From Ilumatobacteraceae bacterium (GTDB lineage Bacteria; Actinomycetota; Acidimicrobiia; Acidimicrobiales; Ilumatobacteraceae), in assembly GCA_963718705.1 (NCBI GenBank), contig OY970375.1, positions 3,461,701-3,525,700 on the forward strand: a DNA stretch of 64,000 bases. Direction: 5' to 3'. The first letter of the stretch is position 1; each line of letters begins with the position of its first letter. The translations under genes were made by a program, and so were the position numbers. Shown in pieces: positions 30,881 to 61,376 of this stretch. The notes beneath the pieces were generated by a model. It did not search any database and was not told the origin of the DNA. It worked only from the letters and a program-made list of their open reading frames with translations.

Positions 30881-30915
30881 CACGTTCAAGTTGTGTCTGA
30901 CACAACTTGAACGTG
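30881..30915. repeat. 35-bp perfect palindrome cacgttcaagttgtgtc-t-gacacaacttgaacgtg (copy a of 5)
   Basis: Arms are exact reverse complements. Located 48 bp downstream of the flotillin stop and 32 bp upstream of the trpG start. Confidence 0.9.
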
Positions 30916-30962
30916 CGACGTACGATCGCGTGCATGCCCCGCGTCGAGTTCGCCGCTGTGCA

Positions 30963-33041
30963 TCAGGCGGCGTGCGAAACGCCGTCGCCGACCGCCGCGT
31001 CGGCGACCATGAAGCGACGCATCAGCGTCGCCGCCAGGCCTTCGATGCTGCCACCGTTGGCACCCGTCACGAGCACCTCCGGCATCACGTTGATGCGACC
31101 CTCGGCGATCGCGTTGATCGCCGCCACGAGCGCCGTGGCCTGCGGGCCGAGGGCCAGCTTCTGGGCTTCGAAACCCTCGGCACGTGCCAGACCCAACGCC
31201 TCGACCGCTTTGGCCTCGGCCAAGCCGACCGCTTCGGCGCGTGACGCCTCGGCGGCACCGACCGCCGACACCTTGCGCGCCTCGGCGTTGCCGAGCACCT
31301 CGATCCTGGTGGCGTCGGCACGACCCAACACCTCGACCTTGGTGGCCTCGGCGCGTGCCGTGGTCTCGGTATAGGCCGCCTCACCGCGAGCGTGTGCGGC
31401 TCGCGCTTCTGCGGCGTTGGCGTTGATCTCGATCGACACCTGCGACGACGCCAACTGACCTTGCATGTCGGCGGTGCCGCGGGCCTTCTCGACCTCGATC
31501 CGGGCGTGCTGCGCTTCGCGCTGCTCGTGGAAGGTGGCCTTCTCCTGCTTGGCGATCTCGCGTTCGGTCAGGACCTGCACGAGCTCGTCGGGGAACACCA
31601 CGTCCTGGATGTAGACGCCGCGGGTCTCCACGTCGTACCCGGTCAGGTACTGCGTGATCGCCTCCAGCGCTGCGGTCTGGACCTCGTCGCGGGTTTCGAT
31701 GAACCGCACCGCCTCCAGCCGCTGCAGGGTGTTGCGGAAGTGGTTGCCGACCGCCGACTGCAGGACCTCGTTGACGAGGTTCTGCATCGTGCCCACCATC
31801 GAGATCACCTTCGGGGCCTTGGTGTCGCTGACGTGGATCTGGACCTGCAGATCGATCTTGAACACGAACCCCTCACGGCTCTTGCCCTCGATCGGGTTGA
31901 GCTGGTGGTCCAGATTGTGCGCCTGGCTGACGGCGGTCGCCCAGTTGAGGGTGAGGATCGACGTCGGCACGATCTCGGCGGCGTAGATGCGCGGGTTGAT
32001 CGGATACTTCCCGGTGCGCAGCGGCTCTTGCCAGATGCCGCGACGGCCGGGTTGCACGATCGACCCGAACTTGAACTCGCTCCCGCTCGTGTCGAGCGTG
32101 GGCAGCCCGACGAAGCTCTTGATCACGGCCACCTCGCCCTGGCGCACGACCAGCATCGGCACCATCTCGACGCTCACCAGGAACGGGTTGAGGAGGTAGG
32201 CGCCGTACAGCAGCGGGTCGTGCTGGAGCCCGATCCGACCACCGTTGGCCATGAACAATTGGAAGTCCTGATAGTTGTTGTGCAGCTCGTTCTTGCGGCC
32301 CAGCAGCACGTCGATCACCTCGGCATCGCTGAGGTGCTCGGCGTGCATCGCCACGATGTCCTCGAAGCCGCCCAGCCGGCTGGCGATGTCGCCGGCCGGG
32401 AGCGGTTCACCTTCGAGCGCGGTCACGATGCCGACCATGTCGGTCGACCCGTTGGGCGAGATCACGGTCACACGCAGCTGCGCGGGGTCGAGCCCGAACA
32501 GGTCGGGCGACAGTGATCCGTACTGGTTGGTGTAGGCCCGCAGTTCGCTCGACACCGGTACCCCGTAGACGCGGCTGGCGGTGATCACCAGGAACGCCGC
32601 CGGGTGGATCGGTACGAGCGTGCCCGGAGGGAGCAACGGACGCTGGACGCCTTTCTGGCCGCCGTGATCGAGGAACGCCGAGAGGTTCGAGAAGTTGCCG
32701 AACTCGGGGTGGAACTCGGCGCTCTTGGCGCCGATCGCGATCGGGTCGCCGACCTGGGCGATCACCACGCCGATCTCGCCGGCGGGCACCTGCACCCAGG
32801 GGTGCTTCGACACGCCGTAGACGGGCCACAGCATGAAACGCAAGCCGGGCATGAGGAGCTGTGCCTGATAGCCGGCTTCGCCGTTGCGAGCAACGGGGTT
32901 GCCTTGGTCCAGGCTGCGGCGTGCGAGCCGCTTGGTGACCACGCCGACTTCGGCGGGGCCGATCGAGTGCAGCGACAACGCTCCGACGAGCAGAGCGAGC
33001 GCGGCGATGACGATGACAATGACGGTGATGACGAGCACCAC
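30963..33041 (-). CDS. flotillin-like SPFH/band-7 domain protein
   Basis: N-terminal TM segment, SPFH domain, then a long Ala/Glu-rich coiled-coil tail (…EAQHARIEVEKARGTADMQ…EARAAHARGEAAYTETTARAEATKVEVLGRADATRIEVLG…). Confidence 0.8.
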   Translation of the reverse strand: MVLVITVIVIVIAALALLVGALSLHSIGPAEVGVVTKRLARRSLDQGNPVARNGEAGYQAQLLMPGLRFMLWPVYGVSKHPWVQVPAGEIGVVIAQVGDPIAIGAKSAEFHPEFGNFSNLSAFLDHGGQKGVQRPLLPPGTLVPIHPAAFLVITASRVYGVPVSSELRAYTNQYGSLSPDLFGLDPAQLRVTVISPNGSTDMVGIVTALEGEPLPAGDIASRLGGFEDIVAMHAEHLSDAEVIDVLLGRKNELHNNYQDFQLFMANGGRIGLQHDPLLYGAYLLNPFLVSVEMVPMLVVRQGEVAVIKSFVGLPTLDTSGSEFKFGSIVQPGRRGIWQEPLRTGKYPINPRIYAAEIVPTSILTLNWATAVSQAHNLDHQLNPIEGKSREGFVFKIDLQVQIHVSDTKAPKVISMVGTMQNLVNEVLQSAVGNHFRNTLQRLEAVRFIETRDEVQTAALEAITQYLTGYDVETRGVYIQDVVFPDELVQVLTEREIAKQEKATFHEQREAQHARIEVEKARGTADMQGQLASSQVSIEINANAAEARAAHARGEAAYTETTARAEATKVEVLGRADATRIEVLGNAEARKVSAVGAAEASRAEAVGLAEAKAVEALGLARAEGFEAQKLALGPQATALVAAINAIAEGRINVMPEVLVTGANGGSIEGLAATLMRRFMVADAAVGDGVSHAA

Positions 33042-33259
33042 GGACCTCCAGTGGGGGATCGAGTGTCGACTGGCGACGCTCGGGTTGGGTTGACGTACTG
33101 CCGACCAGACTTCCCGGCACTGTGACCAGACCCGGTGGATTTGTATTGCACCTGTCTGGTATTGGTTCTACGCCTGTCTGGTTGGGGAGTCAAGAAGATT
33201 CGGTTCGCGATGACCGGTCACCCTCGTTCACGCCGTGAACCGGCCTAGACTCTCCGCCC

Positions 33260-33571
33260 GTGGCACCCCCGAAGCGCAAGACAGGTGGCGGACGTACAAC
33301 GGCCAAGGGCACTCGCCCCGGCAACGTGCAGAAGTACGCCAACCCGAGTGAGAACAAGTCCGGCGTGCACGCTTCGACGCGTTACACCCCGCCGGTGCCG
33401 CCCGAGATGAAACTGCCCAAGCCGTGGGTGCCGTGGTTGATGGTCACGCTGTTGATCACCGGCATGGTCACGATCATGCTGCGCAACCTGGTGTGGCAGA
33501 ACAACTGGCTCACGCTGGCCGGGCTGGGCTTCGTGCTGGGCGGGTTGTACACCGCCACCAAGTGGCGCTGA
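33260..33571 (+). CDS. crgA: cell division protein CrgA
   Basis: Basic N-terminus plus two TM helices (…PWVPWLMVTLLITGMVTIMLRNLVWQNNWLTLAGLGFVLGGLYTATKWR). Conserved position relative to trpG and pknB. Confidence 0.8.
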   Translation: MAPPKRKTGGGRTTAKGTRPGNVQKYANPSENKSGVHASTRYTPPVPPEMKLPKPWVPWLMVTLLITGMVTIMLRNLVWQNNWLTLAGLGFVLGGLYTATKWR

Positions 33572-33584
33572 TCGACCACCTGGC

Positions 33585-33670
33585 GCTGTTCCACAGCGCA
33601 GTTGTCCACAGGGCCTGAATCACATCGGTGTCGTTTGACACAGTGTTGTCCACAGATGTGTGGACAACCC
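33585..33670. promoter_or_regulatory. cluster of DnaA-box-like motifs (3 perfect TTGTCCACA plus 2 degenerate); two of them form a 10-bp-stem hairpin gttgtccaca-gatg-tgtggacaac between convergent genes
   Basis: tgTTCCACAgcgcagTTGTCCACAgg…cgTTTGACACAgtgTTGTCCACAgatgTGTGGACAAcc. Confidence 0.6.
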
Positions 33671-33688
33671 CCACGCGCCTACGACTCC

Positions 33689-33973
33689 TCAGTCGTAGAG
33701 CGGCGCCACGACGATCATTTCCTCGAGACAGTGCTTGGGAGGCGGAGGATCGTCGTCGGGAGCCATCGTCATCTTCAATTCTGTGCCACAGACATCGCAC
33801 CGATACCTGACGTTCACCTTGCGCAGTGCACCAGGCTCCGGCGGGGGTGCGGGCGGGTGCGAGAGCGACTGCAGCATCCCCATCCCTGCTTTCCACAGCA
33901 CGACGCCGATCAACAGGCCCGACACGATCCAGACCACCCTGCCCGCCGTCACTGCCACGATCACGGCACGCAC
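33689..33973 (-). CDS. small hypothetical membrane protein with C-terminal CxxC…HC zinc-ribbon-like motif (GTG start)
   Basis: VRAVIVAVTAGRVVWIVSGLLIGVVLWKAG (TM helix)…RYRCDVCGTELKMT…KHCLEEM. Convergent with crgA. Confidence 0.3.
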   Translation of the reverse strand: MRAVIVAVTAGRVVWIVSGLLIGVVLWKAGMGMLQSLSHPPAPPPEPGALRKVNVRYRCDVCGTELKMTMAPDDDPPPPKHCLEEMIVVAPLYD

Positions 33974-34017
33974 CCTATCGGTTATCCCCAACCCCTGTGG
34001 ATCATCGCACAGGGTGG

Positions 34018-35184
34018 TCAGAGACGCTCGACGATGACGGCGTTGGCCATGCCACCGCCCTCGCACATGACCTGCAAGCCGTAGCGGCCGCCGGTGCGCT
34101 CGAGTTCGCAGACGAGCGTGGCCATCAGCCGCGCACCGGAGGCGCCGAGCGGGTGGCCGAGGGCGATCGCACCACCGTTCACGTTCACCCGGTCCATGTC
34201 GGGGTGCACCTCCTGTTCCCAGGCCAGCACGACCGATGCGAACGCTTCGTTGACCTCGATCAGGTCGATCTGGTCGAGCTGCATCCCGGCCCGTTGCAGC
34301 ACCTTGTGGGTGGCCGGGATCGGCGCCGTCAACATCAACCGCGGATCGGCGCCGGCGAGTGCGAACTCGACCAGCCGGGCACGCGGCCGCAACCCGAGCT
34401 GCTCGGCGCGTTGCTCGCTCATGATCAAGGTCATCGCCGCCCCGTCGCTGATCTGCGACGAGTTGCCGGCCGTCACACGGCCGCCATCGGTGGCCGACAC
34501 GAAGGCCGGCTGGAGCAGCGCCAACGCCGCCGGCGTGGTGTCGCGTACCCCTTCGTCGCGTCCGACCGGTCGACGATCGGTTCCCTCGACCGGCACCAGT
34601 TCGCGTTCGAAGCGACCCTCGGCGATCGCCCGAGCGGCGAACGACTGGGAACGCTCGCCGTAGGCGTCCATCGCGTCGCGACCGATGTTCCACCGGTCCG
34701 CGACGAGCTCCGCCGAGATGCCCTGTGGCACGAGCCCGCCCGCCTCGGCATAACGGGCGCCGAGCCGCGGACCGAACGGATACCCGTACTTGCCATCGGC
34801 CATCGAGGCACCCATCGGCACGCGGGTCATCACCTCCACGCCCCCGGCCACGACCACGTCGTAGGCGCCCGCCATCACCCCTTGGGCGGCGAAGTGGATC
34901 GCCTGCTGACTGGAGCCGCATTGGCGGTCGACGGTGGTGCCCGGGACCGACTCGGGCCACCCGGCCGCCAGCACCGCGTTGCGGGCGATGTTCACCGCCT
35001 GCTCACCCACCTGCATGACACACCCCATGACGACATCGTCGACCACGGCGGGGTCGAGGTCGTTGCGGGTCTGCAAAGCCGTCAGCAGTTCGGCAGCCAG
35101 GTCCACCGGATGCCAGTCGCGCAGCAGCCCGTTGCGCCGCCCGAGCGGCGTGCGGACCACATCGACGATCACGGCACTGTTCAT
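34018..35184 (-). CDS. acetyl-CoA C-acyltransferase (thiolase)
   Basis: Thiolase motifs (VDRQCGSSQQAI…NVNGGAIALGHPLGASGARL…CEGGGMANA). Confidence 0.9.
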   Translation of the reverse strand: MNSAVIVDVVRTPLGRRNGLLRDWHPVDLAAELLTALQTRNDLDPAVVDDVVMGCVMQVGEQAVNIARNAVLAAGWPESVPGTTVDRQCGSSQQAIHFAAQGVMAGAYDVVVAGGVEVMTRVPMGASMADGKYGYPFGPRLGARYAEAGGLVPQGISAELVADRWNIGRDAMDAYGERSQSFAARAIAEGRFERELVPVEGTDRRPVGRDEGVRDTTPAALALLQPAFVSATDGGRVTAGNSSQISDGAAMTLIMSEQRAEQLGLRPRARLVEFALAGADPRLMLTAPIPATHKVLQRAGMQLDQIDLIEVNEAFASVVLAWEQEVHPDMDRVNVNGGAIALGHPLGASGARLMATLVCELERTGGRYGLQVMCEGGGMANAVIVERL

Positions 35185-35312
35185 GGTCCAGCCAAGTCAA
35201 GCCGCTGGCGACGGCCGATCTCGTATCCAGCGTGTGAACCGCGCTGGACGGTTCGGTGCCGATCGGCCCGTGGCCTGTGGACGTGTGACGCAAGCCACGC
35301 GAGACTGAACCG

Positions 35313-37133: not shown

Positions 37134-37238
37134 CCAGCTGCTGGAGTCGCGACGCTGCGATCGCATCGCACTCGTTCGTGCACGCCGTCGCACGTCGTTT
37201 AGAGTCCGTTGCTCGACAACCGTTAAGGGGATCACACC

Positions 37239-40200
37239 ATGTCGAAGCCGCGGGCGCCTTGGGGTACTTGCTGTTCCTGACCGCAGGGACACTGTTGACG
37301 TCGTCTCCCGTTCTGCATGCCGCAGGGCCGACATTCATCGAAGGGTGGGTCACCGCCAGCTCTTCAGGCCAAGCGCTGGAAGGCATCACCGTCATCGCCA
37401 TGACCGGTGATCCCGAAGCGTCTCCGGCCGAGCCGCTCGTCACGGCGGCCACGACCACCACGGATTCCTCCGGGGCCTACTCGCTCGACGTCTCCGCCTC
37501 CGTCGCTGACCAGCCGATCTACGTCAACGTGATCGACATGCTTGACGTGTACGGCGCTGTCATGTTGCAGCCGGTCATCGTCACAGAGGGAACCACATCG
37601 ACCTCTTCGTTCTCGCTCGGCGCAGGTGGTTTCGTTCACGGCCACGTGCTGCACCACACGACGCTCGGCGACATCGGCGTCTCGGAATCCTGTGTCACCG
37701 TCCGCAACCTCGATGGATCATTGGCCGTCCCATACGAGTGGCCAGGTACATGTTCGGGACAGTTCAACGACCCCAACTACTACGCAATTCCTGCTCTCCC
37801 ACCGGGCGACTACTCGCTGTCGTTCGGAACCCCTGATCCATCGCGGTTCTGGCCGCTTCTCGACCAATTCGTGTCGGTCGAGGCCGGTGTGGCCACGGTG
37901 TTCAACCCCTCGCTGCCCTCGGCGCCACCGACGGCGTTGACCGGAGAAGTGACCGAGAGCGGAACGTCGGCACCGTTGGCCGGTGTGGACGTGGTGGTCT
38001 CCGCAACCGATCGGTTCGGCAACCCGACGAATCGGTTCGGGACCACCGACGCAGCAGGCACGTTCGACATCAACCTGGACGGGATGGGATCGGGCGTGTC
38101 GCAGTACCTGGTGAGCTTCTTCGACCCCACCGGGTCACATGCTGCGGTGATCGGTTCTTCGATCTCGATCCAGCCTGGGTACACCGAGGCGATGGCCGTC
38201 GAACTCCAGCCCGGCGGGGTGGTGAGCGGCACCATCAGCGATGCCGGTGGAGCCCCCATCGAGGGTGCCTGCGAGATCATCGAAACGCTGAGTGGCACTC
38301 CCGTGATTCCAACCGATTGGGCGCCGTGCACGGGTCCGGATGGGACCTTTCGGATCCAAGCTGTCCCAGCCGGGCAGTACCGGGTGCGGGTGTTTGCGCC
38401 TGCTGGCTGGCTGTCGACATCCTCGGGCACGCTGACGGTCACCGCCGGCGGGGTGACCGATTTCGGCATCACGCTCGAACCATTCCCCGACACCCTGATC
38501 ACCGGCGTCGTGCTCGACGAGGTCACGTCCGCGCCCATTCCGGGAGCACGGATATCCGTGACGACCACGACGAGGTACGGCGAACTCGCAGGATGGACGG
38601 CCTACGCCGACGACCAAGGCGAGTACTCCGTCGACATCGACAACGATTGGTACGGGCCGCTCTTCGACTGGATCGACACGTCACAGCCGTTCACGATCGA
38701 TGTGTTCGACGATTCGGGGGCCCACGTCGCCGAGTTCGGAGCCACGTCGCTGCTCCAGCCCGGCTATGCCGAGGCGATCGAGTTCGACCTGGCGCCCGGT
38801 GGCAACGTCGCCGGAGTGGTGACCGGTGGGGGGACCCTGCCGTTGCAAGGTGCCTGCGTGATCCTGGAGGACCTGGGCGGCAACCCGATCGTGCCGACCG
38901 ATTGGGCACCGTGCTCCGACCCGACCGGTCGCTACGCCACCGCCGGCGTCCCACCGGGCAACTACCAGGCGCGTGTGTTTGCGCCGGAGGGCTGGCTCTC
39001 ACAGACCGTCCCCGTGTCGGTGACCGTCGGCCAGACCACCCAACTCGCCGTCCACTTGCTTGCGTTCCCACCCACGGCGATCACCGGCACCGTGGTGGAG
39101 GACGGCACGGGTGCACCCCTCTCGGGCGTGCAAGTGCACGTCAGTACGACCGGATTCGGCGGGCGGCAGATTTGGTCGACCGAGACCGATGACGACGGCG
39201 TGTACGAAGTCGATCTTCACGGCTTCAGTTCGCTCGCTCCGTACCAGGTCGACTTCGTGGACCACTCAGGCACCCACATCAGCGAGTTCGGCGCCGAGGT
39301 CGCCGTACAGGTGGGCTACACGGAAGCGATCAGCGCCTCGTTGGCGCCTTCCGGAAGCATCTCGGGTGTCGTCCGAGATTCGAGCGGCAGCCCCTTGGCA
39401 GGCGCATGTGTCGTCATCGAGGATCTTGACGGCAACCCAGTCTATTCCACCGACTGGGCGCCGTGCACGCTGGGCGATGGTGCGTACACCAGCCTCGGAG
39501 TCCCCGACGGGTCGTATCAGGTCCGGGTGGTCGCTCCGCCTCGGTTCCATTCCGGTACGACGGGCCCCGTCGTGATCAGTGGCGGCTCGCCGGCCGCATT
39601 CGATCTGACGCTCCAACCGGTCGTGACTCGAATCACCGGTGTGATCACCGACGACTCCACCGGCGCCCCACTTGCCGGGCTGGTGGTCCGCACGAGGGTC
39701 AACCCCACGACGTCCCCGGCGATCTATGCGACCGACACCACCGACAGCGCCGGCTCGTTCACGCTCGACGTGAGCGACACGCCACTCGTCGACAACGGCG
39801 GGACGTTCAACCTCGACGTTGCTGACCCAACCGGTCAGTACGTGCCGAAGTCCGGAATCGCGGTGACCCCGCAACGCGGCTACGACGAACCGATCGGGCT
39901 CTCGTTGGAGTTGGCCGGTGCGATCACCGGCACGATCCGGTCGAGCGGCGGAAGTGCGATTCCGGGAGCGTGTGTCTCGGTCCGCCCGGCCGCCGCGGCG
40001 GCGAGCGCAGCGAGCACGTGCACCGGAGCCGACGGGATGTACACGTTCATGTCGTTGGCACCTGGCGCGTACGTGCTCGATGTCACGCCGCCCAACACGC
40101 TGTTCGCCGCCAACCTGGGCACGGCGACGACCGTGGTCGGTGGTCAATCCACCGCCGTCGACATCGTGTTGGCCAGTCGCCCCCCGGCGACGGTCACAGG

Positions 40201-43200
40201 GCATGTGACCGACGAGTTCGGCGCGCCGCTCCACAACGCGGTGGTCAAACTGCTGCTGCCTGGGACTAGCGAGGTGGTGGCTCAGTCGCTGAGTGAGCCC
40301 GACGGCTTCTACACCGTGATCGTCGCCGAGGGTCAGTACGACGTGTTCGTCGTCGGGCCGGCGGGAAGCGCTCTGGGCGCGTACCTCCCGAACCGATCGC
40401 TGCTCGGGGCTGCGACGCTCGACATCGCTCTCAGCGGGTTCGGGAACAGCGTGGTGGTGGCGGGTGTGGTGAGTGTTCCTGCTGGTTGGAACGGCTCGGT
40501 CCGCGTGCAATGCGGCACAGCACAAGGCACCAGCATCGTGCAACCCGACGGCTCCTACCTGGTCAGCTTCGAAGCCGTCAACCCCACCACCTGCAGTTGG
40601 GAACAGACCGGCAACAACTACTCGGCCGGCATGCAGTTCTTCAACCTCAGTCGAACGATCAACGTCACCACCGGCATCCCCACCATCATCAACGGCCCCA
40701 CCTACACACCGTTCCCGATCTCGGTCGTCAACGGCGACGGATCACCCGCCGCAACCACCCGACTGCAAATCAACCAATACGAGTACCCATACACCCCAGG
40801 ATCACCCGGCGTGCAGTTCCCCGACGGCACCATCGGCAGCCTCAACCTCAACTACGAGACCTACAACACCTCCACCACGATCGTCCCGCTGTTCGCCACC
40901 CGCACCCTCCAAGTCAGCGCCACGCTCGCCAACGGCATCACCATCAACAACTCCAACAACACCAACATCACCGGACTCACCGAACTCGTGATCGTCGCCC
41001 CGGCCTCCGCGACCGTGGTGGTGTCGGGTGTGGTGAGTGTTCCTGCTGGTTGGAACGGCTCGGTCCGCGTGCAATGCGGCACAGCACAAGGCACCAGCAT
41101 CGTGCAACCCGACGGCTCCTACCTGGTCAGCTTCGAAGCCGTCAACCCCACCACCTGCAGTTGGGAACAGACCGGCAACAACTACTCGGCCGGCATGCAG
41201 TTCTTCAACCTCAGTCGAACGATCAACGTCACCACCGGCATCCCCACCATCATCAACGGCCCCACCTACACACCGTTCCCGATCTCGGTCGTCAACGGCG
41301 ACGGATCACCCGCCGCAACCACCCGACTGCAAATCAACCAATACGAGTACCCATACACCCCAGGATCACCCGGCGTGCAGTTCCCCGACGGCACCATCGG
41401 CAGCCTCAACCTCAACTACGAGACCTACAACACCTCCACCACGATCGTCCCGCTGTTCGCCACCCGCACCCTCCAAGTCAGCGCCACGCTCGCCAACGGC
41501 ATCACCATCAACAACTCCAACAACACCAACATCACCGGACTCACCGAACTCGTGATCGTCGCCCCGGCCTCCGCGACCGTGGTGGTGTCGGGTGTGGTGA
41601 GTGTTCCTGCTGGTTGGAACGGCTCGGTCCGCGTGCAATGCGGCACAGCACAAGGCACCAGCATCGTGCAACCCGACGGCTCCTACCTGGTCAGCTTCGA
41701 AGCCGTCAACCCCACCACCTGCAGTTGGGAACAGACCGGCAACAACTACTCGGCCGGCATGCAGTTCTTCAACCTCAGTCGAACGATCAACGTCACCACC
41801 GGCATCCCCACCATCATCAACGGCCCCACCTACACACCGTTCCCGATCTCGGTCGTCAACGGCGACGGATCACCCGCCGCAACCACCCGACTGCAAATCA
41901 ACCAATACGAGTACCCATACACCCCAGGATCACCCGGCGTGCAGTTCCCCGACGGCACCATCGGCAGCCTCAACCTCAACTACGAGACCTACAACACCTC
42001 CACCACGATCGTCCCGCTGTTCGCCACCCGCACCCTCCAAGTCAGCGCCACGCTCGCCAACGGCATCACCATCAACAACTCCAACAACACCAACATCACC
42101 GGACTCACCGGGTTGTCGCTCTGGCTGATCGGCGCCGGTGAGTGGCGCGACTACGCGTTCGGCCAGTCGAGTGACGCCGACGGGGTGGATGACCTGGTCG
42201 AGGCATTCGCGCCCAACGGTGGCGATGGAAACCGCGACAACATCCCCGACTACCACCAAGCGAACGTCTCGTCGCTCCCGTCGTCCGAGGGCAACTACGT
42301 CACGTTCTCCGCACCCGTGGGGACCACCTTCGGAAACGTGCGCTCGATCGACCCCGCCACACTGGCCGTGCAGCCCGACCCCGGATACTCGCTGCCCGAA
42401 GGCTTGACCGACTTCCGGCTCGACGACATCGCGCTGATCGTCGATGAGTTCGACGTCCCGGTTCCCCAGGACGTCCTGATCTCGATCTACGCGGCGGACC
42501 TCACTGGCGTCATCGGGTACGCCAAGTTCCAGGACGAAGCGTGGACCTACCTGCCGACAGGCCGTGTGGTCATCACTCGAGATGGTGGTGTGGGACCCGG
42601 CGGGCACGTGACGATCCGGCTGACCGACGGTGGAATCGGCGATGACGACGGCGTCGTGAACGGGCAGATCGTGGACCCGGGCGGCCTGGTTCGGTTCCAG
42701 AACTCGCCACCTCAGGTCGTCCTGGGCACCCAGGGTGCGGTCGCCGAAGGGTCGCCGCAAGCGGTCGCCCTCACGATCACCGATCCAAACGGCGACGCCG
42801 TCTCGCACACGTTCGAGCTCGGAGCACCGAACGGCGACGCCGGCATGCAGTGCATTGTCGGAGGAACCGAGACGGCGCCGACCGTGCTCTGCGACGACGA
42901 CGGGCAGGTCGACCTCACCGTCCATGCGATCGACTTCCGTGGTGATACCGCTTCGGCGACCGTGACCTTGACGTTCTCCAACGTCGCTCCCGCGGTGTCG
43001 TTCGTGGTGCCGAGTTCGGTCGGGTCCGCAACCGCCGCCGTGGCTGCGGTGTCGACGACCGATGCCGGGTCAAACGACACCGTCAGCTGTGTCGTCGATT
43101 GGGGCGACGGCACCACGAGTGGCGGCTGCTCGACGGCGACGCACATCTACTCGCCCACCTCGACCACGACGTACCACCCATCCATCACGGCGACCGACGA

Positions 43201-43600
43201 CGACGGAGCGAGCACCACGTCCTCAGCGACGATCACCGTGATCGCTGCGCCGCTGTATCACTTCGGGGGGTTCCTGCAGCCGGTCGACCCCGTTCCGACG
43301 GTCAACGCCGTCAAGGCCGGGAGCGCTGTTCCGGTCAAGTTCTCGCTGGGTGGCGACTTCGGACTCAACGTGCTGACACCCGGGTACCCGACCACGGTTC
43401 GACACGCCTGCAACTCAGCAGTCGTCGACAGTATCGAGTCGACGGTTTCGACGAACGGGCCGGTGTTGACGTACAACTCCACCAGCGGGCTCTACCAGTT
43501 GACGTGGAAGACGGACAAGGCGTGGACCGGGGAGTGCCGAACCCTGATCATCAAGTTCCAGGACGGTTCGGTTGCCACAGCGGAGTTCAAGTTCAAGTGA
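37239..43600 (+). CDS. giant secreted surface/adhesin-like protein (about 2120 aa): Sec signal, at least 5 carboxypeptidase-regulatory-like (prealbumin fold) repeats alternating with a second repeat type, 3 identical 188-aa tandem repeats, an Asp-rich segment, then a PKD-like domain; start-codon frame problem
   Basis: RBS aaggggatcacacc-ATG at 37239 gives MSKPRAPW… but is +1 relative to the long frame (…ALGYLLFLTAGTLLTSSPVLHAAGP). Repeats of the form ITGxVxDxxxGAPLxGxxV…DxxGxYxxD. PKD signature VDWGDGTT…THIY. Confidence 0.75.
40447..42110. repeat. three near-perfect tandem copies of a 564-bp (188-aa) coding repeat inside the giant adhesin gene
   Basis: ORFs 40473-40991 and 41037-41555 translate to identical 172-aa strings. 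The shadow-frame motif WLERLGPRAMRHSTRHQH recurs every 188 aa. Unit 1 differs by gcgggtgtg versus tcgggtgtg at its start. Confidence 0.85.
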
Positions 43601-44954: not shown

Positions 44955-44998
44955 GACCACACGTTCAACTTGTGTCTGACACAACTTGAACGTGGTCA
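44955..44998. repeat. palindrome copy b: gaccacacgttcaacttgtgtc-t-gacacaacttgaacgtggtc (22-bp arms, one arm mismatch caact/caagt)
   Basis: Read directly. It abuts the stop codon of the aminotransferase gene and lies 19 bp upstream of the MarR start. Confidence 0.9.
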
Positions 44999-53213: not shown

Positions 53214-53254
53214 GCGGATGCTCCGCCCACGATCGGCCGCCTACGATCGGGAAG

Positions 53255-54277: not shown

Positions 54278-54342
54278 GCTCAGGCGCCGCACCGAACCAT
54301 GAATGGCCGATCAGGTGCGGTGAACGCGGTACGATCGAACAC

Positions 54343-55937: not shown

Positions 55938-56000
55938 CCCGGCGGGCGGTTTGGTGACCAGAACGGGGTGTGCGGGGCTGCGACCGGGCAAGCTGGGGTG

Positions 56001-56585: not shown

Positions 56586-56623
56586 CCGCGAACCAGCCGC
56601 GAGCGGGAGACGTAGAGTCGGGC

Positions 56624-57046: not shown

Positions 57047-57169
57047 CCACCAGCGGGCAGTGCCTGCGTCCGGATTGGGTTACCGTCGGGGCCTGATCGG
57101 GAATAGCGGAGGTCCGAGTCGGTTGCACGCCTGTTCGCTCGCCGCTCGGCAGCCGACGGGAGCTCGCAC

Positions 57170-58036
57170 ATGACCACAACCGGATCCGAACGTTCGTCAC
57201 AGTTCGCGATCGGCGGCGTGGCTGTCGCCGGCGTGGCGCTGTTGTTGGCGATCGTGATGGCGGTCCGCGGCGGGAGTGTGTCGGACCCGGCCTCCGCATC
57301 TGCCGGCGATGACAGCGCCGAACAGCCCGCTGACCTGGTGGACGACGGGGCCGTGGCTGACCCTGGTGCCGACCCGCTCGACGTGGTCCGCTCCTCGGCC
57401 GAAGCGATGGGTGCGGTCACCAGCGTCGAGTTCGAACTCGACCGCGACGGGGCGCCGATCTACGTCGACCAGTTCGGCAAGATCGCGCTCGACGGCTTGC
57501 GTGGCCAGTTCACCGTGCCGACCAAGGCCCAGGCCGAACTCAGCGTGACCGTCAACGGCACGCTCGCCACCCGGCTCGGGGCGGTGGCGATCGACGACGA
57601 GGTGTGGATCTCGAACCCGGTCACGGGCAACTTCGAGACACTGCCGGCCGGCTACGACATCGACCCGTCGCGGTTCTTCGACCCCGAGGGTGGCTGGAAG
57701 CCGCTGCTCGCCAACCTGACGGGGATCAGCCTGGTCGGCATCGAGAACCGCGGCGGTGAGCGGTACCACGTGCGCGGCACGGCGTCGGCAGAGCAGGTTC
57801 GCAATATCACCGTCAACCTGGTGCGCGACCAGGACGTGGCCGTCGACTTCTGGATCCATCCCGGCACGTTCCTGGTGACCGCGGCCGAGTTCGAGACCGT
57901 GTTCGAGGGGTCCGACAACGCCGCCGACCCGGCGACCGCCCTGCCGGTGACACAGTGGCAGTTGGAACTGCGGCGCTACGGCCAGACGTTCCGGATCGAA
58001 CCGCCCACCAACCTGCGCGTCGAGACAGGGGCCTGA
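57170..58036 (+). CDS. lprG: LppX/LprAFG-family lipoprotein (LprG-like)
   Basis: N-terminal membrane anchor, about 250-aa LprG-like fold, and pairing with a downstream MFS pump as in mycobacterial lprG-p55. Confidence 0.7.
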   Translation: MTTTGSERSSQFAIGGVAVAGVALLLAIVMAVRGGSVSDPASASAGDDSAEQPADLVDDGAVADPGADPLDVVRSSAEAMGAVTSVEFELDRDGAPIYVDQFGKIALDGLRGQFTVPTKAQAELSVTVNGTLATRLGAVAIDDEVWISNPVTGNFETLPAGYDIDPSRFFDPEGGWKPLLANLTGISLVGIENRGGERYHVRGTASAEQVRNITVNLVRDQDVAVDFWIHPGTFLVTAAEFETVFEGSDNAADPATALPVTQWQLELRRYGQTFRIEPPTNLRVETGA

Positions 58037-58038
58037 CC

Positions 58039-60467
58039 ATGGACGACACGATCGACCAAACCTCGACGTTCCGCAAGCGGCCGTCCCCGGCGGCGATCCT
58101 GGCCGTGGTCGGCTTCAGCGTGTTCGTGGCAGCCGACGACCTGACCGTCGTCTCCACCATGCTGCGCCCGATCATCGGCGACCTCGGGCTGGTGTTGCCC
58201 GACGGGCTCGACGACGCGGCGTGGGTGGTCAACGCCTACCTGATCGCATTCGTGGCGATCATGCCGATCGCCGGCCGGATCAGCGACGTGCTCGGGCGGC
58301 GGCGCACGTTCATCGGCGCCTACACGATCTTCCTGCTCGGCTCGATCCTGATCCCCTACACGACGATGCTCGACGACCCCTCGTACCGCTGGTTCCTGGT
58401 TGGCCGCGTGATGACGGCGATCGGCGGCGGGGCGATGGTGCCGGTGGCGTTGGCGGTGATCGGCGACGTGTATCCCGAGGGCCGGCGGGCCGAGCTCTCG
58501 GCACGCTCGGAGCGATCGAGACGCTGGGCTGGGTGTGGGGCCCGCTGTACGGCGCCGTGCTCGTGCGGTTCCTGTCGTGGCAGTGGCAGTTCTGGCTCAA
58601 CATCCCGCTGGCACTGGTGGGCATGGCGGCAGCATGGTGGGCGCTGGCCGACCACGACCGCCCGCAACACGGCGCCCGGATCGACTGGACGGGCGCCTCG
58701 CTGCTCACGATCGCGCTGGTGTCGCTCAACGTGGCGCTGCTCGGCTCGGCCGAGATCCAGAGCGTCAACGGGCTGCAGGAACTCACCGGTCAGGGTGCCG
58801 ACCTGCGCTGGCTGTACCCGGTGGCGCTGGTGGCCGGCGCGTTGTTCGTGTGGCAGCAGCGCCACAGCCGCAACCCACTGATCGACCGGCGCATGTTCCG
58901 GCTGTCCGAGCGCTCGGGGCGCAACCTCGTGGCAGCACTGGTCGTGAACTTCGTGGTCGGGGCCGGGCTCGTGATCGCCATGGTCGACGTGCCGCTGTTC
59001 ATCAACTCGGTCGAATTGAACCTCGAACACGCAGCCGTGATCTCTGGCTGGATCATGTCGGCGATGACCGCCGCGATGGCGGTCACGTCGTACCTCGGTG
59101 GCCGGATCACCGAACGGGTCTGGTTCCGGCCACCGGTGCTGGCGGGCGTGGCGATGTCGACCGCCGCCTACGCCTGGATGGGCGCGACGTGGAACGTCGA
59201 CACGTCGTACCCGGTGTTCGCACTGCAGCTGGCGCTGCTCGGCGCCGGGTTCGGACTCACCGTGGCACCCACCACCAGCGCCGTGGTGGACCAGGCGCCG
59301 CCCGACCAGCGCGGTGCGGCGGCCTCGATCGTGATGGTCGTACGCCTGCTCGGCCTGTCGGTCGGACTCTCGGCGCTCACGGCGTGGGGCCTGGCCCGGT
59401 TCAACGCCCTGCGCTCGACGATCGACCTGCCCCCGCTCACCGACCCCGGCTTCGACAAAGCGCTGCAAGCAGCCTCCGAAACCCTGACCGCCAAGGCGAT
59501 CGCCGAAACCTTCACCGCCGCCGCCGTGGTGGTCGGCGCCGGTCTGATCGCCACCTTCGTCATGCGCCGCGCCGACGCACCAGGAGCTCTCATGAACACC
59601 GAACACACCGAACAGCCCGACCCGGACGAACTGCTGATCGCCCATGTCGACGGCACGACCGACCAGCCGATCGACCAGCTGGTCGACCAGCCCGCCGCTG
59701 CGCCGATCGAGCCGGGCCTGTTGCCCGAACCGATGCCGATGCCGCAACCGGTCCACGCCGCGGTCGGGGCGGTGGCGATCGACGCCTTGCAACGGCGGCT
59801 CAACGTGTTGATCGGCATGCTGGGTCTGCTGCTGGCAGCCGCCTTCGTCACGATCGCGCTGCTGTTCGGGCGCGTCGGCGACGCCCGCGCCGACGCCTCG
59901 GCGGCCCGAACCGAGGCATTGGCGGCCCGAACCGAGCTCGACACGGCTCGCTCCGATCTGGAACGGGTCGAGGCCGGTGCGGCGCTGTACGCCTCGCAGA
60001 TCGACGGGTTCCAGTCGAAGCTGACCGAGCTGCAACCCCAGATCGCCGAAGGCGTGCAATCGGCGATCGACGGGTTGCGTGAGTTCGGTGGCTCCACGAT
60101 CACGTTCCCGGTCAAGATCGACCAGGTGCTCCCGATCGACACCGAGGTCAAGATCCAGCGCACCGTGCAGGTGCCGATCAAGACCACGATCCCGATCAAG
60201 CAGTCGTTCGACACCACGATCCAGATCAGCACGCCGCTCGGCAAGGTGCCGCTCGACGTGACGGTGCCGGTCAACGTGGACGTGCCGATCGACCTGGTGG
60301 TCGACATCCCGATCGACGAGACGGTGCCGATCAAGGACGAGTTCCCGATCAAGCTCGACATCCCGATCTCGATCGACGTCGGCCAGACCGAACTGGCCAA
60401 CCTCACCGAGTCGATCGCAGCCGGGCTCGAGTCGTTGCAGGCCATGCTCGACGGGCTCGGCACCTGA
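58039..60467 (+). CDS. MFS efflux transporter (P55-like) with a roughly 300-aa C-terminal extension (coiled coil plus VP(I/V)D-type short repeats); single frameshift near 58495
   Basis: N-terminal MFS helices in frame 1 to …GDVYPEGRRA. Continuation GALGTLGAIETLGWVWGPL… in frame 0 (14 TM in total). The tail reads …ARTEALAARTELDTARSDLERVEAGAALYASQIDGFQSKLTELQ…PIKTTIPIKQSFDTTIQISTPLGKVPLDVTVPVNVDVPIDLVVDIPIDETVPIKDEFPIKLDIPISIDV. Confidence 0.75.
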
Positions 60468-60500
60468 CGTTCAAGTTGTGTCAGACACAACTTGAACGTC
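60466..60500. repeat. palindrome copy c: gacgttcaagttgtgtc-a-gacacaacttgaacgtc
   Basis: Overlaps the MFS stop codon (tga 60465-60467). Lies 29 bp upstream of the GntR start. Confidence 0.9.
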
Positions 60501-60528
60501 TGGCATGTCGTGACATACTGACAACGCC

Positions 60529-61269
60529 GTGACCGATCTGCCGATCACCCTCAACCGGGTCAGCCCGGTGCCGCTGTACCACCAGCTGGCGCAGCAGTTG
60601 ATGGCGGCGGTCGAGGACGGCCGGCTGCCCAAGGGTGGGTTCCTCGACAACGAGATCGAGCTCGCCGAACGATGGCAGGTGTCGCGGCCCACGGTGCGCA
60701 AGGCGATCGAAGACCTGGTCGGTGCCGGCGTGATGGTGCGCCGCCGCGGCGTGGGCACGCAGGTCGTGAGCGATCAGGTTCGGCGTCCGTTCAAGCTCAC
60801 CAGCCTGTTCGACGACCTCGCCGAGTCAGGTCGGCACCCGATCACCCGGGTCGTGCAGCACGAGACGATCGCGGCCGATGCCGACGTGGCCGAGGCGCTC
60901 GGGATCGCCGACGGTGCGCCCGTCGTCCACATCGAACGCACCCGAGCGGTGGGAACCACACCACTGGCCGTGCTGCGCAACTGGCTGATCATCGACGTCG
61001 CCGGTTCGATCAGCCCCGACGACCTCGGTCGGACCGGGTTGTACGCGCTGCTGCGAGAACGCGGCGTGCGACCGCATGCGGCCACGCAGCGGCTGGGCGC
61101 CGTCGCCGCCGACGACCGCGACGCGTCACTGCTCCATGTGTCGATCGGGGCCCCACTGGTCACGATGCGGCGGGTGATGAGCGACGACGCCGGCCGGATC
61201 GTGGAACTCGGCGACCACCGCTACGACGCCGCCCACTACAGCGTCGAACTCAACGTGCTCGAAAGTTGA
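60529..61269 (+). CDS. GntR-family transcriptional regulator, HutC subfamily (N-terminal wHTH plus C-terminal UTRA domain)
   Basis: …PLYHQLAQQLMAAVEDGRLPKGGFLDNEIELAERWQVSRPTVRKAIEDLVGAGVMVRRRGVGTQV then a UTRA-like region. Confidence 0.85.
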   Translation: MTDLPITLNRVSPVPLYHQLAQQLMAAVEDGRLPKGGFLDNEIELAERWQVSRPTVRKAIEDLVGAGVMVRRRGVGTQVVSDQVRRPFKLTSLFDDLAESGRHPITRVVQHETIAADADVAEALGIADGAPVVHIERTRAVGTTPLAVLRNWLIIDVAGSISPDDLGRTGLYALLRERGVRPHAATQRLGAVAADDRDASLLHVSIGAPLVTMRRVMSDDAGRIVELGDHRYDAAHYSVELNVLES

Positions 61270-61282
61270 AACCCGTCGCTGA

Positions 61283-61317
61283 TGTTCAAGTTGTGTCTGA
61301 CACAACTTGAACATCAG
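61283..61317. repeat. palindrome copy d: gatgttcaagttgtgtc-t-gacacaacttgaacatc (outer arm variant atg/cat, compensated)
   Basis: 14 bp downstream of the GntR stop. The extended arms (cccgtcgctgatg… / …catcagcggacgg) are also complementary. Confidence 0.9.
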
Positions 61318-61339
61318 CGGACGGTGACGGGTTCACGAC

Positions 61340-61376
61340 AACGTTCACGTTGTGTCAGACACAACGTGAACGTTCA
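61340..61376. repeat. palindrome copy e: aacgttcacgttgtgtc-a-gacacaacgtgaacgtt (inner arm variant cacgt/acgtg, compensated on both arms)
   Basis: Immediately downstream of the stop of the minus-strand ABC substrate-binding gene. Confidence 0.9.

What the first reader, a model, noticed from the sequence alone, without database searches (positions are those of the whole stretch)
30881..61376. Family of 33 to 45 bp perfect palindromes (core ACGTTCAAGTTGTGTC-N-GACACAACTTGAACGT), each directly after a stop codon, with compensatory arm substitutions
Five copies lie at 30881-30915, 44955-44998, 60466-60500, 61283-61317 and 61340-61376. Every copy begins 0 to 50 bp after the stop codon of a gene. Three of them also sit 19 to 32 bp upstream of the next start, which belong to trpG, the MarR regulator and the GntR regulator. 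Variants are compensated on the opposite arm. Copy d has gatg…catc where the others have cacg…cgtg. Copy e has cacgttg…caacgtg where the others have caagttg…caacttg. Compensation means the inverted symmetry is under selection, either as an RNA hairpin (a 15 to 22 bp stem with a 1 to 3 nt loop and no U-tract, so an I-shaped terminator or RNA element) or as a dimeric protein-binding site. The central GTGTCWGACAC resembles the GT-Nx-AC operators of GntR/HutC regulators, for example the DasR dre core GGTCTAGACC. A HutC-family regulator sits between copies c and d. The palindromes create a spurious ORF family (MCLTQLE, MFKLCQTQLE) in the six-frame track.
Basis: seen in the sequence. Interest (0 to 1): 0.8.

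Follow-up and report, generated by a model that had tools for sequence, protein, structure and literature searches.

The report
REP palindromes with a RAYT transposase
The five palindromes are copies of a dispersed repeat (a REP element) that, in related Ilumatobacter genomes, flanks a dedicated single-strand DNA transposase; this is a known kind of bacterial repeat system, here in an actinobacterial lineage where I found no published description, and it is not an operator for the neighbouring GntR regulator.

Summary
Five copies of ...GTTGTGTC-W-GACACAAC... sit at the stated places, each 0-47 nt from a stop codon. Copy b is imperfect and copy d is longer than reported.

They are not a local regulon. 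The same core occurs at least 57 times in one Ilumatobacteraceae MAG (Ww598) and in other Ilumatobacter genomes and metagenomes, next to unrelated genes. Most copies lie between convergent or co-directional genes, abutting stop codons.

In eight related lineages, a Y1/HUH transposase gene carries that lineage's own variant of the palindrome beside it. Both flanks are seen in seven lineages; the eighth is a fragment with only the upstream copy. The centre base is usually A upstream and T downstream. The predicted fold matches E. coli REP-associated tyrosine transposase (RAYT, PDB 4ER8) best.

The window's own genome encodes a homologue (P0245). It ends in RSSCV-stop, exactly what the window-type palindrome encodes.

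So these are REP elements of a REP-RAYT system. The arm covariation reflects a hairpin requirement. The HutC-operator idea is not supported: a different conserved palindrome, ATGTCGTGACAT, sits upstream of the GntR gene and its orthologues. A terminator or mRNA-stabiliser role is possible as a secondary function, but there is no U-tract and some copies lie in frame inside genes.

This is a new member of a known kind, of moderate interest.

The parts
30881..30915 (.). REP copy a. CACGTTCAAGTTGTGTC-T-GACACAACTTGAACGTG, perfect 17-nt arms. Lies between the SPFH gene stop (30963, - strand) and the GATase gene start (30849, - strand).
   Evidence: RNA hairpin -31.2 kcal/mol, z -6.3.
44955..44998 (.). 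REP copy b, imperfect: mismatch at +/-8 and a 2-nt bulge. Overlaps the stop codon (44996-44998, - strand) of the class-III aminotransferase gene and lies 18 nt upstream of the MarR gene start (44936, - strand).
   Evidence: -28.7 kcal/mol.
60466..60500 (.). REP copy c, perfect 17-nt arms, centre A. Overlaps the TGA (60465-60467) of the MFS gene and lies 28 nt upstream of the GntR/UTRA gene start (60529).
   Evidence: -31.6 kcal/mol. Absent at the orthologous site in L056, L058 and L059.
61277..61319 (.). REP copy d, perfect 21-nt arms, centre T, 7 nt after the GntR gene stop. Forms an inverted doublet with copy e.
   Evidence: (-39.5 kcal/mol).
61340..61374 (.). REP copy e, perfect 17-nt arms, centre A, of the ACG/CGT subtype. 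Lies 8 nt from the stop (61383-61385, - strand) of the NMT1-family binding-protein gene. The same subtype flanks the RAYT gene in L100.
   Evidence: (-30 kcal/mol).

Best explanation
The palindromes are REP elements (repetitive extragenic palindromes) of an Ilumatobacteraceae REP-RAYT system.

Each copy is a stem-loop of about 29-43 bp. Its only asymmetry is the single central base, A or T, which gives it a polarity.

A chromosomal HUH/Y1 tyrosine transposase (RAYT) is flanked by two such palindromes of opposite polarity. By analogy with E. coli TnpA-REP and the IS200/IS605 transposases, it is inferred to recognise the hairpin in single-stranded DNA and to cut and rejoin it. This would disperse copies around the genome.

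Copies persist where they do least harm: directly after stop codons, in co-directional and convergent gene gaps. The arms covary because the hairpin, not only the sequence, is required. The outer arms co-evolve with each lineage's RAYT.

When transcribed, the copies form strong hairpins (-28 to -40 kcal/mol) without U-tracts. These may secondarily protect mRNA 3' ends, dampen read-through or affect translation termination, as described for E. coli REPs.

Shown: the family is dispersed, shows a 3'-end bias, shows covariation, and has a RAYT gene next to it in eight lineages. A RAYT homologue exists in the window's genome and ends inside a window-type REP.

Inferred: RAYT-catalysed mobility, and any RNA-level function.
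For: (1) Dispersal. The core AAGTTGTGTCNGACACAACTT is found in 55 loci. 51 come from one MAG (Ww598) and 4 from two other Ilumatobacter MAGs. 34 further metagenome contigs carry window-like subtypes. Half-sites almost never occur alone: 1 of 134.

(2) Context. Of 59 extragenic core-perfect copies, 25 lie between convergent genes, 29 between co-directional genes and 5 between divergent genes. The median distance is 2 nt to the stop and 24 nt to the next start. The stop-codon offset peaks sharply at -17 from the centre, at the element's edge.

(3) RAYT in Ww598. L035 ORF 329-1156 lies exactly between two copies, and its TGA stop is the centre of the downstream copy. Pfam Y1_Tnp gives 23.8 bits against a cut-off of 23. 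NCBIfam REP_Tyr_transpos gives E=1.7e-13. HUH (H-Y/F-H) and RY(I/V)HRN are invariant in 22-37 homologues. The AF2 model has pLDDT 91.8. The top Foldseek PDB hit is 4er8_A, the REP-associated tyrosine transposase bound to a REP hairpin, with probability 1.0 and TMt 0.62, followed by ISDra2, IS200 and IS608 TnpA.

(4) Lineage specificity. Homologues in L061, L062 (I. coccineus), L063, L065, L100, L102 and L083 each have their own palindrome variant beside them. Both flanks are seen in all but L083, which is an N-terminal fragment with only the upstream copy. The centre is A upstream in 7 of 8 and T downstream in 6 of 7.

(5) Doublets. Pairs up to 120 nt apart always have opposite centre bases, 5 of 5.

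(6) Covariation.

(7) Window genome. P0245 comes from the same 4,694,772-bp contig as the window's GntR protein. It is a RAYT homologue ending in RSSCV-stop. CGTTCAAGTTGTGTC-TGA of the window-type REP translates to exactly RSSCV*.

(8) Turnover at orthologous sites. At the GntR locus of relatives there are 0, 1 or 2 copies, or unrelated hairpins.

(9) Insertion. In-frame intragenic copies occur in Lon, an AMP-binding enzyme and a carotenoid-synthesis protein.

(10) Published definitions. [quoted passage not shown]
Against: - No RAYT gene lies in the window. The flanks of the window genome's RAYT could not be fetched, so only its 3' REP is inferred, from the protein C-terminus.
- The last ~55 residues of P0245 do not align with relatives, which may indicate a frameshift, so it may not be active.
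- The NCBIfam score is below the curated equivalog cut-off (50.7 against 80). Sequence-only PDB searches did not reach 4ER8.
- The unpaired GTAG/CGTC tag typical of published REP superfamilies is absent (PMC3733652).
- No transposition event or clean empty site was observed. The relatives compared are too divergent (about 75% amino-acid identity).
- Gene context rests on my own codon-score caller, not a validated gene finder.
- The genome scan required an exact 20-nt core, so core invariance in Ww598 is partly due to how copies were selected.
Confidence: 0.85

Rival explanations
1. The family is primarily a set of factor-independent, bidirectional 'I-shaped' transcription terminators or 3'-end hairpins. 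On this view it is selected for that role, like the TRIT motif of Mycobacterium, and the transposase association is secondary.
For: - Copies hug stop codons and are enriched between convergent genes.
- The hairpins are very stable.
- At the orthologous GntR/NMT1 convergent site, relatives carry other hairpins instead: a GC-rich stem-loop in L058 and an unrelated 41-bp palindrome in L059. This suggests a hairpin is wanted there.
- TRIT is a precedent: 147 palindromic, bidirectional copies with a narrow distribution around stop codons (PMC3152330).
Against: - No U-tract follows any of the five copies or the Ww598 consensus.
- Mycobacterial RNA polymerase needs a U-tract in vitro (PMC3993855).
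- Predicted TRIT and I-shaped terminators overlap only 2-4% of mapped 3' ends in M. tuberculosis (bioRxiv 10.1101/2022.06.01.494293).
- Three copies lie in frame inside genes, including lon.
- Three window copies sit 18-31 nt upstream of the next co-directional gene.
- A conserved 20-nt core and lineage-specific RAYT flanks are not explained by termination alone.
Confidence: 0.1
2. The palindromes are operators of the adjacent GntR/HutC-family regulator (window 60529-61269), which would bind them as a dimer.
For: - The core TGTC-N-GACA resembles GT-N-AC type GntR operators.
- Three copies surround the GntR gene in the window.
Against: - At least 57 copies lie next to unrelated genes in Ww598, and many fill convergent gene gaps where there is no promoter.
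- The flanking genes in the window are functionally unrelated.
- The copy upstream of GntR is absent in three orthologous loci. All four loci share a different palindrome, (A/T)TGTCGTGACA(T/A), just upstream of the start codon.
- Outer-arm covariation (T:A to A:T at +/-13) is not expected for one protein's operator.
Confidence: 0.02
3. The palindromes are binding sites for some other abundant dimeric DNA-binding protein, such as a nucleoid-associated or chromosome-organising factor. On this view they spread by recombination rather than transposition, and the RAYT-like gene is a domesticated partner with a non-transposase role.
For: - The symmetry is perfect and the core is invariant across species.
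- G:T intermediates are nearly absent: 3 of 300 cells. This fits a constraint on duplex DNA or on both strands.
- RAYTs are generally regarded as domesticated, vertically inherited single-copy genes (PMC5581495). The upp-RAYT-pgm gene order is conserved here.
Against: - There is no candidate protein.
- Covariation in variable outer positions and lineage-specific symmetric indels favour a hairpin over a fixed duplex motif.
- The polarity encoded by the centre base, and the inverted arrangement around RAYT, point to strand-specific, single-strand processing.
Confidence: 0.05

Closest known systems
REP / REPIN-RAYT systems of Proteobacteria (E. coli yafM/TnpA-REP, PDB 4ER8; Pseudomonas and Stenotrophomonas REPs; PMC2817692, PMC3116915, PMC5581495)
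   Same: - Short extragenic palindromes in tens to hundreds of copies, mostly downstream of genes.
- Sequences specific to each species.
- Complementary mutations preserve the stem.
[quoted passage not shown]
- The RAYT sits at a conserved chromosomal position.
- Inverted doublets occur.
   Different: - The host is Acidimicrobiia (Actinomycetota). None of the REP/RAYT papers I could search mentions Actinobacteria.
- Stems are perfect, with a 1-nt centre instead of an imperfect stem plus loop.
- Polarity resides in a single base.
- There is no unpaired GTAG/CGTC tag.
- Singlets dominate over doublets.
- The RAYT is about 275 aa, with a conserved YRWSSHRTYLG motif and a C-terminal helical extension of about 130 aa that E. 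coli TnpA-REP (165 aa) lacks.
- The RAYT stop codon is the centre of the downstream REP in several lineages.
TRIT (Tuberculosis Rho-independent terminator) motif of Mycobacterium (PMC3152330)
   Same: An actinobacterial, sequence-conserved, palindromic and therefore bidirectional hairpin family of about 150 copies, with a very narrow position distribution at stop codons and no canonical U-tail.
   Different: - TRIT is reported as restricted to Mycobacterium, and no transposase has been linked to it.
- Its sequence was not compared here because no model was available.
- The present family has a cognate RAYT.
Rickettsia palindromic elements (RPE) and intragenic REPs (PMC3733652)
   Same: Some copies are inserted in frame within protein-coding genes and are translated. 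Here the translated peptide is DKVVSDTTLS, in Lon, an AMP-binding enzyme and a carotenoid-synthesis protein.
   Different: RPEs are longer and CGTC-tagged, have no dedicated transposase, and are frequently intragenic. Here only about 3 of 64 copies are intragenic.
IS200/IS605 family insertion sequences (IS608, ISDra2 TnpA)
   Same: The HUH/Y1 catalytic fold and subterminal hairpins recognised on single-stranded DNA. These are the second to tenth best structural matches.
   Different: IS200/IS605 elements are multi-copy autonomous units with both hairpins on the same strand. Here the gene appears to be at a fixed locus, the flanking hairpins are inverted, and it is the hairpins that are multi-copy.

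Membership tests
REP (repetitive extragenic palindrome) | Short (about 20-40 bp) palindromic unit able to form a stable stem-loop | tested here: met
   Arms of 14-21 nt around a 1-nt centre. Hairpins of -28 to -40 kcal/mol, z -3.4 to -8.6.
REP (repetitive extragenic palindrome) | High copy number, dispersed around the chromosome | tested here: met
   57 core-perfect copies in 51 loci of MAG Ww598. 5 copies in the 64-kb window. The whole window genome could not be scanned.
REP (repetitive extragenic palindrome) | Predominantly extragenic, downstream of coding regions, between co-directional or convergent genes | tested here: met
   25 convergent, 29 co-directional, 5 divergent and 3 intragenic. 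Median 2 nt from the stop. Gene calls come from my own codon-score method.
REP (repetitive extragenic palindrome) | Conserved unpaired GTAG or CGTC tetranucleotide at one end (the two published superfamilies, PMC3733652) | tested here: not met
   No conserved unpaired position exists beyond +/-15. CGTC occurs in Ww598 copies, but only as part of the paired stem. The family belongs to the 'untagged' REP-like class.
REP (repetitive extragenic palindrome) | Clusters or doublets with alternating orientation (BIME/REPIN) | tested here: met
   All 5 doublets up to 120 nt apart have opposite centre bases, including window copies d and e. Doublets are a minority of copies.
RAYT (REP-associated tyrosine transposase) | IS200/IS605-type Y1 transposase with HUH motif and catalytic tyrosine | tested here: met
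   Pfam PF01797 at 23.8 bits against a cut-off of 23. NCBIfam NF047646 at E=1.7e-13, but 50.7 bits against a cut-off of 80. H60, H62 and Y119 are invariant. P0245 of the window genome keeps NHYHLV and RYVHRN.
RAYT (REP-associated tyrosine transposase) | Fold closest to TnpA-REP rather than to ordinary IS200/IS605 TnpA | tested here: met
   AF2 pLDDT 91.8. Best PDB match is 4er8_A at E=1e-3, probability 1.0, TMt 0.62 over 146 columns, ahead of ISDra2, IS200 and IS608.
RAYT (REP-associated tyrosine transposase) | Gene flanked by two cognate REPs in inverted orientation | tested here: met
   Seen in L035, L061, L062, L063, L065, L100 and L102, plus fragment L083 (upstream copy only). The centre is A upstream in 7 of 8 and T downstream in 6 of 7. 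For the window genome only the 3' REP is inferred, from the RSSCV* C-terminus.
RAYT (REP-associated tyrosine transposase) | Flanking sequence is among the most abundant oligomers genome-wide (PMC5581495) | tested here: met
   The palindrome flanking the Ww598 RAYT is the one found at least 57 times in that MAG.
RAYT (REP-associated tyrosine transposase) | Single copy, vertically inherited | tested here: inconclusive
   The gene order upp-RAYT-pgm-pfkB is shared by L035, L061 and L063. Only one hit was found in about 0.5 Mb of held sequence. Full genomes could not be scanned, and other lineages have the gene elsewhere.
RAYT (REP-associated tyrosine transposase) | Cleaves and rejoins single-stranded REP DNA | not testable with these tools
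   Needs biochemistry.
Canonical intrinsic terminator | GC-rich hairpin followed immediately by a U-tract | tested here: not met
   The hairpin is present but relatively AT-rich, and no T-run follows any copy on either strand.
TRIT (Mycobacterium) | Match to the TRIT sequence/structure motif | not tested
   No TRIT model or sequence was available. The Rfam scan at gathering threshold found only a tRNA in the window.
GntR/HutC operator | Site in the promoter region of the regulator or its targets, conserved at orthologous loci | tested here: not met
   The site is absent upstream of the GntR orthologues in L056, L058 and L059. A different conserved palindrome is present there. Many copies lie between convergent stops.

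The most novel reading that the evidence does not exclude
This would be the first REP-RAYT system characterised in Actinomycetota, with an unusual anatomy. The hairpin is perfectly two-fold symmetric, and its polarity is carried by one central base. The RAYT has an extra C-terminal domain, and its own stop codon is the centre of a REP.

In the strongest version, insertion is aimed at, or selected to lie exactly at, stop codons. The last base of the stop codon would then be the first base of the element. The lineage would have domesticated the repeats as its general 3'-end hairpin without a U-tract, linking the long-standing puzzle of 'I-shaped' or TRIT-like actinobacterial terminators to RAYT-driven repeats.
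Probability: 0.2. Interest if true: 0.65.

Novelty: new member of a known kind. Interest (0 to 1): 0.42.

Why it matters
The finding turns an apparent local regulatory motif into a genome-wide repeat system with an identifiable enzyme.

- **Annotation.** It explains the spurious short ORFs (KLCQTQL and similar). It also warns against calling these sites operators or terminators from sequence alone.
- **REP/RAYT biology.** It extends the system to a Gram-positive, high-GC lineage. One species, I. coccineus, is cultured and has its own clear REP type.
- **A testable polarity.** The REP is so symmetric that one loop base should decide which strand the enzyme acts on. That can be tested directly in vitro.
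- **Actinobacterial transcription.** It offers a concrete hypothesis for conserved hairpins without U-tracts at gene ends, such as TRIT: they may be RAYT-type repeats first and RNA elements second.

Tried and rejected
- **Gene calling.** A first greedy codon-usage gene caller mis-called antisense ORFs. I replaced it with a local six-frame score on each flank.
- **DNA-uptake-sequence idea** (isolated half-sites): rejected. Only 1 of 134 exact half-sites is not part of a full palindrome.
- **Centre base tracks the direction of the upstream gene:** no. The split is 19 against 13.
- **TGA as a target motif independent of gene ends:** not supported. TGA next to the element occurs on 32 of 72 gene-end sides but only 1 of 34 gene-start sides. 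Stop-codon targeting on one flank cannot be excluded.
- **Outer-arm pairing.** Part of the excess at positions 15-17 is explained by TGA/TCA stop codons on both sides of convergent pairs, not by stem selection.
- **Rfam** at gathering threshold finds nothing but a tRNA.
- **Sequence-only PDB searches** with the RAYT or its profile reach only weak IS200 hits. A fold search was needed.
- **Other genes lying between palindrome pairs** (L037 DUF4386, L004) are ordinary.
- **Literature searches** for Ilumatobacter palindromes or actinobacterial RAYTs found nothing relevant.

Full report
**1. The observation**

The window (67% G+C) contains five copies of a palindrome with the core GTTGTGTC-W-GACACAAC, centred at 30898, 44977, 60483, 61298 and 61357. 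With up to three mismatches the core gives 5 hits against 0.43 expected, and 0 of 100 shuffles reach 5.

Four copies are perfect palindromes around a single central base. Copies a, c and e have 17-nt arms. Copy d has 21-nt arms and spans 61277-61319, so it is longer than reported. Copy b is not perfect: it has an uncompensated C/C mismatch at +/-8 and a 2-nt bulge.

- Downstream genes: a GATase (trpG/pabA-like), MarR and GntR+UTRA.
- Upstream genes: SPFH, a class-III aminotransferase, MFS and an NMT1-type binding protein.

Every copy lies 0-47 nt from a stop codon. Copies a, b and c also lie 18-31 nt upstream of the next co-directional start. As RNA, the copies fold into hairpins of -28 to -40 kcal/mol. 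None is followed by a T-run.

**2. The family is genome-wide, not local**

A scan of one genome per species for AAGTTGTGTCNGACACAACTT returned 55 loci. 51 come from a single Ilumatobacteraceae MAG (Ww598) and 4 from two Ilumatobacter MAGs. The window's own genome is not in that collection: one search found only short pieces at 74-84% identity.

The Ww598 consensus is [C/A]G[T/A]CAAAGTTGTGTC-W-GACACAACTTTG[A/T]C[G/T]. The window type is ACGTTCAAGTTGTGTC-W-GACACAACTTGAACGT. A metagenome scan added 34 contigs with further subtypes: ACTTTCAAG..., GTTCCAAG... and CGTTCAAG.... Half-sites almost never occur alone, only 1 of 134.

I assessed gene context with a six-frame codon score on each flank. This is my own method, checked on the five window copies. 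The results are:
- Of 59 extragenic core-perfect copies, 25 lie between convergent genes, 29 between co-directional genes and 5 between divergent genes.
- In co-directional gaps the median distance is 2 nt to the stop and 24 nt to the nearest candidate start.
- The first base of the stop codon peaks at -17 from the centre and is almost never closer. Genes therefore end right at the edge of the element, and sometimes the stop overlaps it.
- The flanking genes are functionally unrelated.

**3. Symmetry is maintained**

In Ww598, position +/-13 is T:A in 22 copies and A:T in 22, with 13 other combinations. That is 45 paired copies against 24.5 expected from the marginal base frequencies.

Across 20 copies from nine genomes, aligned on the centre base, 96.3% of cells pair against 71.5% in shuffles. 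12 of 15 stem pairs show changes on both sides, with 0 of 500 shuffles reaching the observed score. Versions with the 3' partner slid by 1-3 columns pair only 28-44%.

Three points qualify this:
- These counts are sequences, not independent events.
- Part of the excess pairing at positions 15-17 comes from TGA/TCA stop codons on both sides.
- G:T intermediates are nearly absent, 3 of 300 cells. This fits a constraint that acts on both strands or on DNA.

Uncompensated mutations do exist, in window copy b and in the single copy in L056.

**4. The decisive clue: a transposase between two copies**

In Ww598 locus L035, a 275-aa ORF (329-1156) lies between palindromes centred at 286 and 1154. Its TGA stop is the centre of the second palindrome.

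The evidence that this ORF is a RAYT:
- It matches Pfam Y1_Tnp at 23.8 bits against a cut-off of 23.
- It matches NCBIfam 'REP-associated tyrosine transposase' over the whole model at E=1.7e-13, though below the equivalog cut-off.
- Homologues are numerous in Ilumatobacter and relatives, and many carry JGI's name 'REP element-mobilizing transposase RayT'.
- The HUH histidines, RY(I/V)HRN and a YRWSSHRTYLG motif are invariant.
- The AlphaFold model has pLDDT 91.8 and pTM 0.87. Its best PDB match is 4er8_A, the E. coli REP-associated tyrosine transposase bound to a REP hairpin. The ISDra2, IS200 and IS608 transposases follow.

**5. The association repeats in every lineage examined**

Each homologue has a palindrome with a 1-nt W centre beside it, and the sequence is lineage-specific:

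| Locus | Source | Palindrome arm |
|---|---|---|
| L061 | SS_bin_52 | GTCAAAGTTGTGCC |
| L062 | I. coccineus AP012057 | CGGACGGTTTGTCTC |
| L063 | metagenome contig (JGI) | CGTACACGATGTGCC |
| L065 | metagenome contig (ENA) | AGTTGGGAGTTGTGCC |
| L100 | Ilumatobacter sp. MAG (GCA_029979785.1) | TTTCACGTTGTGTC (the subtype of window copy e) |
| L102 | metagenome contig (ENA) | AGTCGTAGTTGTGTC |
| L083 | metagenome fragment | GACTTTCAAGTTGTGTC |

L083 holds only the N-terminal part of the gene and its upstream copy. In the other lineages both flanks are seen.

Read in the gene's orientation, the upstream copy has centre A in 7 of 8 cases and the downstream copy has centre T in 6 of 7. The two flanks are therefore in inverted orientation, and the single central base carries the polarity. 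Consistently, all five doublets up to 120 nt apart, including window copies d and e, have opposite centre bases.

The gene order upp-RAYT-pgm-pfkB is shared by three lineages. This fits a resident, vertically inherited gene.

These are the defining features of RAYT/REP as published:
- The flanking oligomers are abundant across the genome (PMC5581495).

**6. Link to the window's own genome**

The window's GntR protein is 100% identical to P0001, which comes from a 4,694,772-bp contig. A search seeded with the L100 RAYT found P0245 on a contig of the same length.

P0245 keeps NHYHLV, RYVHRN and YRWSSHRTYLG, and it ends ...RRRSSCV. The window-type REP left arm plus centre, CGT TCA AGT TGT GTC TGA, translates to RSSCV*. 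Other RAYTs likewise end in the peptide their own REP encodes: QSCV in Ww598, RSCV in L102, SRCV in L100. So the window genome's RAYT gene terminates inside a window-type REP with centre T.

Its flanks could not be fetched. Its last ~55 residues do not align with relatives, so a frameshift is possible.

**7. Turnover and insertion**

At the conserved LprG-MFS-GntR / NMT1-ABC locus, the state differs between relatives:
- L056 (78% amino-acid identity) has no copy upstream of GntR. It has one copy downstream, with a left arm like copy e and a right arm like copy d.
- L058 has no family copy and carries a GC-rich stem-loop instead.
- L059 has an unrelated 41-bp perfect palindrome.

Three Ww598 copies lie in frame inside genes and would be translated as DKVVSDTTLS. 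The genes encode Lon protease, an AMP-binding enzyme and a carotenoid-synthesis protein. These patterns fit insertion and loss. They also argue that the hairpin is not an efficient terminator when translated.

**8.

*Operator.* This is not supported. Besides the points above, all four GntR loci share (A/T)TGTCGTGACA(T/A) just upstream of the start codon, at window 60505-60516. That is a better candidate for the HutC-type operator.

*Terminator or RNA element.* The position and stability fit, and the Mycobacterium TRIT motif is a close analogue (PMC3152330). Several points count against it:
- There is no U-tract.
- Mycobacterial RNA polymerase requires a U-tract in vitro (PMC3993855).
- TRIT and I-shaped predictions overlap few mapped 3' ends (bioRxiv 10.1101/2022.06.01.494293).

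I treat an RNA-level role as a possible secondary function, by analogy with E. coli REPs. The roles I have in mind are 3'-end protection, attenuation of read-through and effects on translation termination. That E. coli REPs act this way is from my own knowledge. The REP reviews I read state only that REPs can affect termination and mRNA stability (bioRxiv 10.1101/2021.07.10.451892).

**9. Novelty**

REP-RAYT systems are well known. The published surveys I could search list Proteobacteria and a few other phyla and do not mention Actinobacteria.

This system differs in anatomy:
- The stems are perfect.
- The asymmetry is a single nucleotide.
- There is no unpaired GTAG/CGTC tag (PMC3733652).
- Singlets predominate.
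- The RAYT is longer.

I rate it a new member of a known kind and of moderate interest.

**10. Limits**

- Mobility and RAYT activity are inferred, not observed.
- Gene context rests on a home-made caller.
- The Ww598 set was selected by an exact core match.
- The window genome outside the 64 kb could not be read.

Noticed in passing
window 60505-60516 (also L058 around 4970, L059 around 4982, L056 around 3652): ATGTCGTGACAT, of the form TGTC-GT-GACA, lies between REP copy c and the GntR/UTRA start codon. It is conserved upstream of the orthologous regulator in three relatives that lack the REP. It is a candidate autoregulatory HutC-type operator.
   Followed up: partly
L055 around 220-255; L014 around 7370-7405; L008 around 3150-3185: Three Ww598 REP copies lie in frame inside genes and would be translated as DKVVSDTTLS/T. 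One is in Lon protease, just N-terminal to the AAA domain. One is inside the AMP-binding domain of an acyl-CoA-ligase-like enzyme. One is in a carotenoid-synthesis protein. This is reminiscent of Rickettsia palindromic elements.
   Followed up: partly
L059 5783-5823 (= L060 1218-1258); L058 5767-5792: At the convergent GntR/NMT1 site, one relative has an unrelated 41-bp perfect palindrome, GTGTCAGCACATACGACCTC-A-GAGGTCGTATGTGCTGACAC. Another has a GC-rich stem-loop. I did not check whether the 41-bp palindrome is another REP family.
   Followed up: no
P0245 (RAYT homologue of the window's genome), residues about 225-279: The C-terminal ~55 residues are Arg-rich and do not align with close homologues, yet the protein still ends in the REP-encoded RSSCV. 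This may reflect a frameshift or decay of the C-terminal domain.
   Followed up: partly
L035 300-328, L061 250-277, L062 2972-3000, L100 around 5925-5945, L102 around 2735-2760: A short motif, (C)TGTGACAC(C), recurs between the upstream REP and the RAYT start codon in several lineages. It resembles a REP half-core and could be a regulatory or cleavage-guide sequence.
   Followed up: no
window 33645-33668: A perfect inverted pair, GTTGTCCACA-GATG-TGTGGACAAC. Each arm contains TTGTCCACA, the actinobacterial DnaA-box consensus as I recall it. It lies in a short intergenic region.
   Followed up: no
window 1-19100: The first ~18 kb has lower G+C (0.63-0.68 against 0.68-0.70) and a weak codon-usage signal. 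It ends at tRNA-Leu(CAG), 18994-19077 on the - strand, which has a 13-nt-arm palindrome (18965-18991) next to it. No REP copy lies in the first 30 kb. This may be an island integrated at the tRNA.
   Followed up: no
window 37259-43600: A very long ORF of about 2100 aa with internal tandem repeats of about 564 bp (around 40473-42128) and strong negative GC skew (-0.21 at 40-42 kb).
   Followed up: no
L062 881-915 (I. coccineus): Another perfect palindrome with a 1-nt centre, CCTGGTTATTTCCATCC-C-GGATGGAAATAACCAGG. It is unrelated to the REP family.
   Followed up: no
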